DNA of 64,000 nucleotides from a virus. Taxonomy: Duplodnaviria; Heunggongvirae; Uroviricota; Caudoviricetes. Made by a program: the position numbers. The DNA is taken from the IMG/VR virus record IMGVR_UViG_2880412407_000011; one strand, 5' to 3'. Below, in pieces: positions 48,001 to 51,000 of the stretch (position 1 is the first letter of the stretch; the number at the start of each line of letters is the position of its first letter).

Positions 48001-51000
48001 AGGTCAGTATGCTGCGTGTTGAGTTCAGCGCAGAGTTTAAGCAGGTGGTGAACTGATGCAGGATATTCACGAAGAAAGTCTGAACGAGTCGGTTAAATCA
48101 GAGCAGTCACCGCGGGTGGTACTCTGGGAAATCGACCTGACGGTACAGGGTGGTGAGCGGTATTTTTTCTGCAATGAGCTGAATGAAAAAGGGGAGGCGG
48201 TTACCTGGCAGGGGCGGCAATATCAGGCATACCCGATTGACGGCAGTGGCTTTGAGATGAACGGGAAGGGCAGCAGTGCCCGCCCGTCGCTGACGGTGTC
48301 GAATCTGTTCGGTCTGGTCACCGGAATGGCGGAGGACCTGCAGAGCCTGGTGGGGCCACGGTGGTCCGCCGCCGGGTGTATGCCCGTTTTCTGGATGCGG
48401 TGAATTTTGTGGCGGGCAATCCGGAAGCGGACCCGGAGCAGGAGCTGAGCGACCGCTGGGTGGTGGAGCAGATGTCAGAGCTGACGGCCATGACAGCCTC
48501 GTTTGTGCTGGCAACACCGACGGAGACGGACGGAGCGCTGTTTCCCGGTCGCATCATGCTGGCGAACACCTGTATGTGGGATTACCGGGGAGATGAATGC
48601 GGGTATAACGGTCCTGCGGTGGCGGATGAGTTCGATAAACCCACCACCGATATCCGTAAGGACAGATGCAGCAAGTGCATGCGCGGGTGTGAGATGCGCG
48701 GCATGGTGGCTAATTTTGGCGGTTTCCTTTCCATTAACAAACTTTCGCAGTAAATCCAATGACACAGACAGAATCAGCGATTCTGGCGCATGCCCGGCGG
48801 TGTGTGCCTGCGGAGTCGTGCGGCTTCGTGGTGAGAACGCCGGAGGGGGAGCGGTATATCCCTTGTGTGAATATCTCTGCAGAGCCGGAGGCGTATTTTC
48901 GTATTGCACCGGAAGACTGGCTGCGGGCAGAGATGCAGGGGGAGATTGTGGCACTGGTCCACAGTCATCCCGGTGGTCTGCCCTGGCTGAGCGAGGCCGA
49001 CCGGCGGCTGCAGATAAAAAGTGCACTGTCCTGGTGGCTGGTCTGCCGGGGGGAAATTCATAAATTCCGCTGTGTGCCACATCTGACAGGACGGCGCTTT
49101 GAGCACGGGGTGACGGACTGTTACACGCTGTTCCGGGATGCCTACCATCTGGCGGGAATTGATATGCCGGATTTTGAGCGTGAGGATGACTGGTGGCGCA
49201 ACGGTCAGAACCTTTACCTGGACAATATGGAGGCGACTGGTTTTTACAGGATTTCCCTGCCTTCCGCACAGCCTGGCGATATCCTGCTGTGCTGCTTTGG
49301 CGCATCGGTGGCCAATCATGCCGCCATATACTGCGGCAACGGTGAGCTGCTTCACCATCTGCCTGAACAACTGAGTAAACGGGAGAGGTATTCTGAAAAA
49401 TGGCAACGACGAACGCATTCTGTCTGGCGTCACCGCCACTGGCACGCATCTGCCTTCACGGGGATTTGCAACGATTTGGCCGCCGCCTCAGCCTGTACGT
49501 GAACACGGCAGCGGAAGCCATCCGTGCCCTGTCGCTGCAGATGCCGGGATTCCGCGGTCAGATGAACGAAGGCTGGTACCAGATACGTATTGCCGGTGAG
49601 GATACCGCGCCGGAGGCGGTGTATGCCCGTCTTCATGAACCGCTGAGCGGGAGGGCCGTGATTCATATTGTACCGCGGCTGGCAGGGGCCGGGGGAAATG
49701 GTGTTTTTCAGGTGGTGCTGGGGGCGGCAGCCATCGTGGGCTCTTTCTTCACTGCCGGGGCATCAATGGCGTTATGGGGTTCAGCCCTGGCAGCCGGTGG
49801 TTTTTCTGCCACCACGATGCTGTTTTCACTGGGGGCCAGCATGATTCTGGGTGGTGTGGCTCAGATGCTGGCCCCGAAGGCTAAAGTACCGGAGTACAAA
49901 AGCACGGATAACGGCAGACAGAACACGTACTTTTCCTCGCTGGATAACATGATTGCCCAGGGGAACCCGATGCCGGTGCCTTACGGTGAAATGCTGGTTG
50001 GCTCCCGGCGAATCTCCCAGGACATCAGTACCCGTGATGAAGGCGGTGGCGGAAAGGTCGTGGTTATCGGGCGGCAGGGGTAAAAAGAATAAAAAAATCC
50101 CGCAGAGTTGCGGGGACAGACAAAGATTAACGTTAAGGAGTTATTTTTGTTTCTGGTGCTCGGGCAAAAAAACATTAACGCAGAGAAATTATTAGCACCA
50201 CAGTCAGTTTGTGAAAATGTGAAGATATTCAGAAGTTTTATTCAGTCATGATACAGGCATCCTCCGGGATGCCTGTTGTTTTTGTGCGTAACAGTTATCA
50301 CAGTAAAGGGTGAGACAATGGGCAAAGGTGGCGGCAAGGCGCACACACCTCGTGAGGCGAAGGACAATCTCAAATCCACGCAGATGATGAGCGTGATTGA
50401 TGCCATCGGTGAGGGACCGGTGGAAGGCCCGGTGAAGGGGCTGCAGAGTATTCTGGTGAACAAAACCCCGCTGACGGACACGGACGGTAATCCTGTGATA
50501 CATGGTGTGACAGCGGTCTGGCGCGCCGGGGAGCAGGAGCAGACACCACCTGAAGGCTTTGAGTCCTCCGGAGCTGAAACCGCACTGGGCGTGGAAGTGA
50601 CGAAGGCAAAGCCGGTGACGCGCGCCATTACGTCCGCGAACATTGACCGCCTGCGGGTCACCTTCGGGGTGCAGTCACTGCTGGAGACCACCTCAAAGGG
50701 CGACCGTAATCCCTCTTCTGTCCGACTGCTGATTCAGTTGCAGCGTAACGGTAACTGGGTGACGGAAAAGGATGTCACCATTAACGGCAAGACCACCTCG
50801 CAGTTTCTGGCGTCGGTGATTCTGGATAATCTGCCTCCCCTTCCTTTTAACATCCGGATGGTCCGGGAGACGGCGGACAGCACCTCGGACCAGCTGCAGA
50901 ATAAGACGCTCTGGTCGTCATACACCGAAATCATCGATGTGAAACAGTGCTACCCGAACACGGCGATTGTGGGGCTGCAGGTGGATGCGGAGCAGTTTGG

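What the first reader, a model, noticed from the sequence alone, without database searches (positions are those of the whole stretch)
50084..50317. About 230-bp non-coding insert with terminator-like hairpins between I and J
Unlike the tightly packed lambda tail genes, I and J here are separated by roughly 230 bp. The spacer contains a cccgcagagttgcgggg hairpin and a caggcatcctccgggatgcctg hairpin followed by a T-rich stretch just before the J RBS. This could be a transcriptional attenuator or a moron remnant affecting J expression.
Basis: seen in the sequence. Interest (0 to 1): 0.2.

Follow-up and report, generated by a model that had tools for sequence, protein, structure and literature searches.

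The report
PasB-family small RNA gene between I and J
The 234-bp gap between tail genes I and J holds a compact small-RNA gene read from the opposite strand, a relative of the known Hfq-dependent prophage sRNAs PasB (EPEC) and EcOnc22-24 (O157), followed by a lambda-like hairpin in front of J, so it is a real but already described kind of element.

Summary
I stops at 50083, J starts at 50318, and both hairpins are present.

The first hairpin (50099-50114) has no T-run on the tail-gene strand. On the minus strand it is followed by T7. It is the terminator of a roughly 91-nt minus-strand gene with its own promoter (-35 TTCACA, -10 AATAAT).

The whole spacer aligns at about 90% with the I-J spacer of EPEC E2348/69 prophage PP6. 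The Northern-validated, Hfq-dependent 83-nt sRNA PasB maps at the same place and orientation there. The O157 Sakai sRNAs EcOnc22/23/24 (about 85 nt, Hfq-dependent) also map to I-J spacers.

All 81 related prophage loci examined carry at least part of such a cassette; 70 carry 1-4 complete tandem copies, and 11 carry only its terminator and body. Every complete cassette has an invariant CRP-like box, TCTGA-N6-TCACA, exactly 24 nt upstream of the -10.

The second hairpin (50253-50276 plus T-run) is a plus-strand terminator-like element. Lambda has an analogue in its own 60-bp I-J gap.

A 34-codon plus-strand ORF is not conserved.

Verdict: this is a sequence variant of a known sRNA family. Expression in this strain, CRP control and any effect on J remain untested.

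The parts
49400..50083 (+). Tail assembly protein I gene (left boundary); stop TAA at 50081-50083
   Evidence: ORF list; Pfam Lambda_tail_I, E = 1.9e-14
50091..50181 (-). Predicted PasB/EcOnc22-family sRNA, about 91 nt. The 5' end is predicted at G 50181, 7 nt after the -10. The position equivalent to the published PasB 5' end is 50166. The 3' end lies in the U7 tract 50097-50091.
   Evidence: Alignment to E2348/69 PP6, where PasB maps at 1466343-1466261 on the minus strand between I and J. Over the sRNA, 78 of 85 ungapped positions are identical, with three indels. The module HMM hits 50088-50237 at E = 7e-34, the only copy in the window.
50099..50114 (-).
   Evidence: Terminator scan, minus strand. 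Fold of -10.9 kcal/mol. Stem CCCGC/GCGGG is invariant in 35 variants with one covarying pair, while the loop varies from 4 to 20 nt.
50188..50215 (-). Sigma-70-type promoter of the sRNA: -35 TTCACA (50215-50210), 16-nt spacer, -10 AATAAT (50193-50188)
   Evidence: Promoter scan, 10 of 12 matches. The -10 is NATAAT in 46 of 52 unique cassettes at a fixed position.
50215..50236 (.). CRP-like box AAATGTGA-AGATAT-TCAGAAGT; 16-mer core at 50218-50233, centre 50225.5
   Evidence: One mismatch to TGTGA-N6-TCACA, which is not rare by chance in a single sequence. The half-sites are invariant in all 52 unique cassettes, with 8 different N6 sequences and exactly 24 nt to the -10 across 23 different linkers. 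The box is repeated with every cassette in tandem arrays.
50253..50286 (+).
   Evidence: Terminator scan. Fold of -19.3 kcal/mol, z = -4.7. 97% of cells are paired in 11 variants, but covariation is no better than shuffles. Lambda has an analogous hairpin in its 60-bp I-J gap.
50305..53710 (+). J ribosome-binding region (AAAGGGTGAG) and tip attachment protein J gene, ATG at 50318 (right boundary)
   Evidence: Sequence; ORF in frame with 50276..53710; Pfam GpJ domains
50147..50251 (+). 34-codon plus-strand ORF (SD AAGGAG at 50135-50140, TTG start). Considered and rejected as a conserved gene.
   Evidence: The frame is closed to 18-19 codons with no start in 17 of 32 unique spacers. Alternative 'MKIN' ORFs have different lengths and frames, or lack the ATG.

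Best explanation
The I-J spacer is a self-contained sRNA gene cassette (a moron) inserted between the I stop codon and a lambda-like hairpin that precedes J.

The cassette is read from the strand opposite to the tail genes.

By homology the product is a member of the PasB/EcOnc22-24 family. These are Hfq-dependent trans-acting sRNAs made from the silent prophage in the lysogen. In EPEC, PasB forms RIL-seq chimeras with core and virulence mRNAs.

The sequence features, the homology and the synteny are shown here. Hfq dependence, size and target binding are shown only for homologues in other strains.

Three things are inferred. First, that this copy is expressed. Second, that the conserved TCTGA-N6-TCACA box makes the promoter cAMP-CRP responsive. 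Third, that during lytic growth the Q-antiterminated late transcript, which is fully complementary to the sRNA, reads through both hairpins.
For: (1) PasB coordinates, strand, size and probe come from Pearl Mizrahi 2021 table S6. They place PasB between E2348C_1436 (I) and E2348C_1437 (J), opposite in orientation.

(2) The window spacer aligns with that spacer over its full length at 90% column identity.

(3) EcOnc22/23/24 (about 85 nt, destabilised in a hfq deletion) are listed by Tree 2014. They fall in the I-J spacers of Sakai Sp15, Sp14 and Sp11, on the strand opposite to the tail genes. After the v1-to-v2 coordinate shift calibrated on AgvB and StxS, the Hfq peak covers the PasB-equivalent body. 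The Sp15 spacer is homologous to the window.

(4) A minus-strand promoter and terminator are predicted in the right places.

(5) All 81 loci with at least 91%-identical I proteins have a spacer of at least 234 nt that holds at least part of a cassette. In 70 of them there are 1-4 complete cassettes. Conservation is concentrated in the terminator stem, the -10, the box and short single-stranded motifs.

(6) PasB is higher in overnight LB culture than in DMEM, the opposite of the CRP-repressed sRNA Spf in the same data set.
Against: There are no expression data for this strain or this variant.

The window variant differs from PasB by three indels: 9 nt in the terminator loop, 4 nt in the proposed seed region and a 6-nt insertion. 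Its targets may therefore differ.

No Rfam family exists to test against; the best hit was Hrs1 at 22 bits, E = 0.26.

The published PasB 5' end (83 nt) lies about 15 nt downstream of the start predicted from the -10.

The CRP-like box would be centred near -44.5 rather than the canonical -41.5. It carries a mismatch at a contact base, and a single such site is not rarer than chance.

Only the terminator shows a conserved structure.

The EcOnc22 assignment depends on a coordinate offset that I estimated rather than read from a lift-over.
Confidence: 0.85

Rival explanations
1. The spacer is chiefly a cis-acting transcriptional attenuator for J. Hairpin 2, and perhaps hairpin 1, would terminate unmodified plus-strand transcription, so that J and the downstream lom, tail-fibre and effector genes are expressed only under Q antitermination.
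For: Hairpin 2 is a strong plus-strand terminator-like structure: 10 bp at -19.3 kcal/mol, followed by a T-run. It is kept in all spacers that have the J-proximal block. Lambda has an analogous hairpin before J.
Against: Hairpin 1 has no T-run on the plus strand. Most of the spacer (50088-50237) matches the minus-strand cassette. Covariation in hairpin 2 is no better than shuffles. Late transcription is Q-antiterminated (established lambda biology), so a terminator would not limit J in the lytic cycle. This role can coexist with the sRNA gene but does not explain the insert.
Confidence: 0.3
2. The insert is a moron that encodes a small protein on the plus strand. The candidate is the 34-codon ORF at 50147-50251 with SD AAGGAG, terminated by hairpin 2.
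For: The window has a good SD and a TTG start. Sp15-type spacers have an ATG-started 39-codon ORF ending at the same TGA. One phage record annotates a 32-aa hypothetical protein there.
Against: The frame is interrupted in 17 of 32 unique spacers. Start codons, lengths and frames differ between variants (22, 31 or 39 aa, or none). Substitutions fall on second codon positions. The conserved 'C-terminal' block coincides with the box, whose half-sites, not codons, are what is conserved.
Confidence: 0.04
3. This particular copy is a decaying, non-expressed relic of the PasB cassette.
For: It has a shortened terminator loop and a 4-nt deletion in the proposed seed relative to PasB. Tree 2014 lists no Hfq peak that I could assign to this variant.
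Against: The promoter matches 10 of 12 consensus positions. The terminator is intact, with a 6-bp GC-rich stem and U7. The box is intact. At least 335 records are >=99% identical to the query, and 345 of 5426 complete genomes cover >=80% of it. A close relative, L036, differs by only 11%.
Confidence: 0.1

Closest known systems
PasB (pathogenicity-associated sRNA B) of EPEC E2348/69 prophage PP6 (Pearl Mizrahi et al. 2021, PMC8550237; Zhu, Shabalina & Storz 2026 preprint)
   Same: Same locus (between I and J) and same orientation (opposite to the tail genes). Same terminator stem and U7, same -10 position and same box. The spacer is about 90% identical.
   Different: There are three indels inside the sRNA, including 4 nt in the region proposed as the seed. 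The -10 is AATAAT rather than TATAAT. Expression and targets of this variant are unknown.
EcOnc22/EcOnc23/EcOnc24 of E. coli O157:H7 Sakai prophages Sp15/Sp14/Sp11 (Tree et al. 2014, PMC4104026)
   Same: They lie in I-J spacers, on the strand opposite to the tail genes. They are about 85 nt and Hfq-dependent. The cassette architecture is homologous.
   Different: The sRNA is only about 69% identical to the window copy over the gapped alignment. Neither Pearl Mizrahi's table S6 nor the Zhu preprint links PasB to EcOnc22-24. My link rests on synteny, homology and an estimated coordinate offset.
Other prophage moron sRNAs of EHEC: AgvB, AsxR, HnrS (EcOnc10-12), StxS
   Same: They are short Hfq-binding sRNAs with intrinsic terminators, encoded in lambdoid prophages and expressed in the lysogen.
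   Different: They sit at different sites, namely downstream of PR'/Q or elsewhere in the late region. Their sequences are unrelated. AgvB and AsxR act as anti-sRNAs and HnrS represses hha. No target is established for the I-J family.
I-J intergenic hairpin of phage lambda (NC_001416 15445-15504)
   Same: It is a plus-strand GC-rich hairpin followed by a T-run immediately before the J RBS.
   Different: The stem sequence differs, and lambda has no sRNA cassette. I did not search for, and know of, no published function for it.

Membership tests
PasB sRNA family | Sequence homology to the PasB gene of E2348/69 | tested here: met
   The spacers align end to end at 90% column identity. Over the sRNA, 78 of 85 ungapped positions are identical, with 3 indels.
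PasB sRNA family | Location between tail genes I and J, transcribed opposite to them | tested here: met
   PasB maps at 1466343-1466261 (minus strand), between I (ends 1466255) and J (starts 1466496). In the window, the minus-strand promoter and terminator lie between I (50083) and J (50318).
PasB sRNA family | 3' stem-loop followed by poly-U (intrinsic terminator and likely Hfq site) | tested here: met
   Stem at 50114-50099 plus U7. The stem is invariant in 35 variants.
PasB sRNA family | Expressed as a roughly 83-nt, Hfq-stabilised RNA that forms Hfq-dependent chimeras with mRNAs | not testable with these tools
   This is shown only for E2348/69 and, for about 85 nt and Hfq dependence, for EcOnc22.
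EcOnc22-24 (O157 Sakai) | The Hfq CRAC peak coincides with the cassette in the I-J spacers of Sp15/Sp14/Sp11 | tested here: inconclusive
   All three peaks fall inside I-J spacers. Their exact position depends on the shift from NC_002695.1 to .2, estimated as +137 to +146 at 1.94 Mb and about +122 to +130 at 2.93 Mb. With that shift the peak lies on the sRNA body.
Class II CRP-dependent promoter | TGTGA-N6-TCACA site | tested here: met
   TGTGAAGATATTCAGA at 50218-50233 has one mismatch, and chance alone gives 2.6 such sites per window. The half-sites are invariant in 52 unique cassettes while the N6 varies.
Class II CRP-dependent promoter | Site centred at -41.5 relative to the transcription start | tested here: inconclusive
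   The fixed 24-nt linker puts the centre at -44.5 if the start is 7 nt after the -10. The true start is unknown.
Class II CRP-dependent promoter | Transcription depends on cAMP-CRP | not testable with these tools
   The support is only circumstantial. PasB is higher in LB overnight culture than in DMEM, the opposite of Spf.
Phage moron | Extra DNA with its own promoter and terminator between two late genes that are adjacent in relatives | tested here: met
   Lambda and PhiR26_1 have 60-bp I-J gaps. The window has 234 bp with a promoter and a terminator. Other inserts occur at the same site, namely sodC and 2-4 cassettes.
Intrinsic terminator / attenuator upstream of J | GC-rich hairpin plus U-tract on the J strand, with structure maintained in evolution | tested here: inconclusive
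   The hairpin and T-run are present and 97% of cells are paired. However, 6 of 10 pairs never vary, and covariation equals the shuffles in 235 of 500.
Small-protein gene | Reading frame, start and length conserved among homologues | tested here: not met
   The frame is closed in 17 of 32 unique spacers, and starts and ends are inconsistent.

The most novel reading that the evidence does not exclude
The I-J junction of O157-type lambdoid prophages may be a dedicated, expandable sRNA locus. It would hold 1-4 tandem, diverging PasB-like genes, each driven by a cAMP-CRP-responsive promoter. Carbon status of the lysogen would then set the dose of a family of Hfq sRNAs with diversified seeds. Because each sRNA is perfectly complementary to the late tail mRNA just upstream of J, the same RNAs could also modulate J synthesis or mRNA processing on induction.
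Probability: 0.2. Interest if true: 0.5.

Novelty: new member of a known kind. Interest (0 to 1): 0.3.

Why it matters
The spacer is unannotated in RefSeq genomes and has no Rfam family, so this sRNA gene is invisible to standard annotation. It is nevertheless widespread: some part of the spacer matches in 1120 of 5426 complete E. coli genomes, and 345 of them cover at least 80% of it.

Three points are practical. Linking PasB (EPEC) to EcOnc22-24 (EHEC) unifies two literatures. The invariant CRP-like box gives a directly testable regulatory hypothesis. The tandem arrays, and the sodC version in which the sRNA body would become a 3'UTR, suggest how prophages diversify sRNA repertoires.

None of this changes the basic picture. 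This is a known class of prophage sRNA.

Tried and rejected
(1) Rfam. Nothing in the spacer reached threshold. The best hit was Hrs1 at 22 bits, E = 0.26, which reflects only a generic terminator resemblance.

(2) Plus-strand small ORF. Rejected for lack of frame conservation.

(3) HnrS (EcOnc10-12) as the identity of the element. Rejected, because it is a different locus.

(4) EcOnc54 in Sp6 as a further homologue. Rejected, because it lies between L and an antirepressor gene rather than at I-J.

(5) A genome-contig scan with AAAAAATCCCGCAGN{2,30}TGCGGG to get the taxonomic range.

(6) Consensus folding of 35 sRNA variants. Only the terminator stem is supported, with no conserved 5' structure.

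(7) Covariation test of hairpin 2. No better than shuffles.

(8) Duplex prediction of the sRNA body against 186 translation-initiation regions in the window. Nothing exceeded shuffled controls.

(9) Looked for published TSS or Term-seq tables for Sakai. No supplement is held for that paper.

(10) The conserved TTCACA at 50223-50218 as a -35. Rejected, because it lies 24 nt from the -10.

Full report
**Observation.** The window reads I (49400-50083, stop TAA), a 234-bp spacer (50084-50317) and J (ATG 50318).

Both hairpins exist. CCCGCA-GAGT-TGCGGG lies at 50099-50114 and folds at -10.9 kcal/mol. ACAGGCATCC-TCCG-GGATGCCTGT lies at 50253-50276, folds at -19.3 kcal/mol, and is followed by TGTTTTTGTG and the J RBS. 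The spacer folds better than all 200 shuffles on either strand. The crude terminator count in the surrounding 1.2 kb is not above chance.

**Strand of the first hairpin.** On the plus strand, hairpin 1 is preceded by A7 and followed by GACAGAC, so it is not a terminator there. On the minus strand it is followed by T7. The scan also finds a minus-strand sigma-70-type promoter: TTCACA, 16 nt, AATAAT, at 50215-50188. Together these predict a minus-strand RNA of about 91 nt, running from about 50181 to about 50091.

**Identity.** No Rfam family matches. The literature supplied the answer.

- PasB is one of five 'pathogenicity-associated' sRNAs found by RIL-seq in EPEC E2348/69. Table S6 of Pearl Mizrahi et al. 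lists it at NC_011601 1466343-1466261, minus strand, 83 nt, in prophage PP6, between E2348C_1436 and E2348C_1437.
- PasB was confirmed by Northern blot and is Hfq-dependent. It was more abundant in the non-activating condition.
- In the RefSeq record those two genes are tail assembly protein I (ends 1466255) and gpJ (starts 1466496).
- The E2348/69 spacer aligns with the window spacer over its whole length at 90% column identity.
- Over the sRNA itself, 78 of 85 ungapped positions are identical. There are three indels: 9 nt in the terminator loop, 4 nt just upstream of the terminator, and a 6-nt insertion.

**Link to EHEC.** Tree et al. 2014 list EcOnc22, 23 and 24 as mutually homologous sRNAs in Sakai prophages Sp15, Sp14 and Sp11. 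They are about 85 nt on Northern blots and are destabilised without Hfq. They lie on the plus strand.

In the current Sakai record, all three coordinates fall in I-J spacers whose tail genes are on the minus strand. The Sp15 spacer is homologous to the window spacer.

Tree's coordinates refer to an older record version. I calibrated the shift in two ways. The Rfam position of AgvB1 gives +137 to +146 at 1.94 Mb. The 258-nt PR'-tR' StxS transcript gives about +122 to +130 at 2.93 Mb. With either value the 61-nt Hfq peak lies on the PasB-equivalent body, next to the I stop.

Neither table S6 nor the 2026 preprint on Pas distribution connects PasB with EcOnc22-24. I regard the link as very likely, but not proven without a lift-over.

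**Comparative anatomy.** I fetched 80 IMG/VR loci encoding I proteins at least 91% identical to the window's. I also used the E2348/69 and Sakai loci.

In all 81 loci where both I and J could be located, the spacer is at least 234 nt. The length classes are 234-260, about 340, 421-425, 478-489, 715, 851 and 915-920 nt.

An HMM of the cassette shows that the longer classes, apart from the ~340-nt class (one complete cassette with a different J-proximal end) and the 851-nt class, contain 2, 3 or 4 tandem, diverged cassettes. The four-cassette array is present at at least 80% coverage in 67 complete E. coli genomes, where it is unannotated.

The 851-nt class (11 loci) keeps the terminator and body, but a minus-strand sodC gene replaces the promoter.

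Lambda and a lambda-like phage with a 66%-identical I protein have only a 60-bp gap. The site therefore behaves as a moron insertion point.

Within the E. coli collection, some part of the window spacer matches in 1120 of 5426 complete genomes and 345 of them cover at least 80% of it (at least 335 records are >=99% identical). It is also found in 147 phage records, mostly Stx-converting phages. The segments are mosaic.

**What is conserved.** Across 52 unique cassettes, in sRNA orientation, the conserved parts are:

- the box AAAA(N)T-TCTGA-N6-TCACA-TTT;
- a -10 hexamer NATAAT, in 46 of 52 cassettes;
- GCGTTA at the predicted start;
- a U-run;
- the motifs ACUCC and GUUAAUCUUC;
- the terminator stem CCCGC...GCGGG plus the U-tract.

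The 24-nt linker between the box and the -10 never changes length, yet it has 23 different sequences. The N6 of the box has 8 versions, while the half-sites are invariant.

That pattern is what a dimeric DNA-binding protein site at a fixed promoter geometry would give, and the sequence is one mismatch from the CRP core. I therefore propose cAMP-CRP activation.

The caveats are real. One such site per window is expected by chance. The mismatch is at a contact base. The predicted centre is -44.5 rather than -41.5.

There is circumstantial support. PasB is higher in overnight LB than in exponential DMEM, while the CRP-repressed sRNA Spf behaves the opposite way in the same data. Stationary phase could explain that equally well.

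**RNA structure.** The only structure shared by 35 variants is the terminator: four invariant pairs and one with a C-G to U-A change. The body is A/U-rich and largely unstructured, as in many Hfq sRNAs.

**The second hairpin.** It is present once per spacer, J-proximal, and only after the last cassette. It is a strong plus-strand terminator by shape.

Its pairing is kept in 97% of cells. Most pairs never vary, and the single compensatory change does not exceed shuffles.

Lambda has a different hairpin plus T-run at the same place. It is therefore an ordinary feature of I-J junctions rather than part of the insert. I did not search for, and know of, no published function for it.

It could stop unmodified read-through into J, lom and the downstream effector genes in the lysogen. 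Q-modified polymerase should ignore it, by established lambda biology. This is untested here.

**Alternatives.** A 34-codon plus-strand ORF with a good SD exists in the window. In 17 of 32 unique spacers the frame is closed, and other variants have different starts, lengths and frames. I reject a conserved protein.

A decayed, silent copy cannot be excluded without expression data. Against that, the promoter, box and terminator are intact, and at least 335 records are >=99% identical to the spacer.

**How it most likely works.** In the lysogen the cassette is transcribed leftward from its own promoter and terminates at the hairpin abutting I. This yields an Hfq-binding sRNA that acts in trans. 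Targets are known only as RIL-seq partners of PasB in EPEC.

The window variant has a 4-nt deletion in the stretch that Zhu et al. propose as the seed, so its target set may differ.

On induction, late transcription crosses the cassette and produces RNA fully complementary to the sRNA. Whether this affects J is unknown. A search for in-window trans targets gave nothing above shuffles.

**Verdict.** The element is a variant member of a described prophage sRNA family, so novelty and interest are modest. Three side observations are, as far as the papers I could read show, not yet reported, and each is cheaply testable: the equivalence with EcOnc22-24, the invariant CRP-like box, and the tandem arrays together with the sodC form.

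Noticed in passing
L014 2182-3101, L019 682-1596, L041 2182-2896, L017 2182-2659, L044 1173-1661, L009/L018/L024/L025/L031 (spacers of 421-425 nt): The I-J spacers of other prophages hold 2-4 tandem, diverged PasB-like cassettes, each with its own box, -10 and terminator. The 4-cassette array occurs in 67 complete E. coli genomes and is unannotated. The Pas preprint gives 28 kb as the smallest distance between pasB copies, so the arrays appear to be unreported.
   Followed up: partly
L013 2182-3032 (also L028, L034, L035, L038, L049, L063, L078, L079, L082, L085): This is the 851-nt spacer class. A minus-strand Cu/Zn superoxide dismutase gene (sodC, Pfam Sod_Cu, E = 3.9e-32) replaces the cassette's promoter. 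The PasB-like body and terminator then lie downstream of the sodC stop (which the ORF list puts near L013 2372), so they would form the sodC 3'UTR.
   Followed up: partly
L087, L046, L023 spacers, just upstream of the J RBS (alignment, columns 240-270): The heptamer CAGACAT is repeated 1-4 times in front of the RBS of GTG-started J variants. It is absent from the window.
   Followed up: no
L090 846-905 (lambda 15445-15504): Lambda's own 60-bp I-J gap contains a plus-strand hairpin, ACCGCC-TGCG-GGCGGT, followed by TTTTGTCATTT (-15.2 kcal/mol, z = -3.8). It is analogous in position to the window's second hairpin.
   Followed up: partly
L089 19610-20235 (O157:H7 ECP17-1298): In this strain K and I are deleted: an L pseudogene ends 29 bp before the match. 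The spacer with the sRNA cassette and J are nevertheless retained at 100% identity. Downstream lie lom, tail fibre genes, nleA, nleH1-2 and nleF, which resembles an Sp9/CP-933P-like context.
   Followed up: no
window 4429-4627, 10419-10535(-), 15318-15369(-), 22603-22777, 27071-27143, 27247-27320, 28093-28265, 56306-56422: Rfam hits at gathering score elsewhere in the window are IS009, two ALIL pseudoknots (IS3-family frameshift sites), DicF, sok, two tRNAs and STnc100. The Pas preprint relates STnc100 to PasD. The window therefore carries several other prophage RNAs.
   Followed up: no
L047/L050/L055/L061 spacers (340-342 nt): This spacer class has one cassette but a different J-proximal part that lacks the GTCATGA block and hairpin 2. 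Its content was not examined.
   Followed up: no
window 50135-50251 (+): An SD sequence AAGGAG with a TTG-started 34-codon ORF lies antisense to the sRNA's 5' half and its promoter. One phage record (PhiR12_1) annotates a 32-aa hypothetical protein at the equivalent place. The ORF is not conserved among variants.
   Followed up: yes
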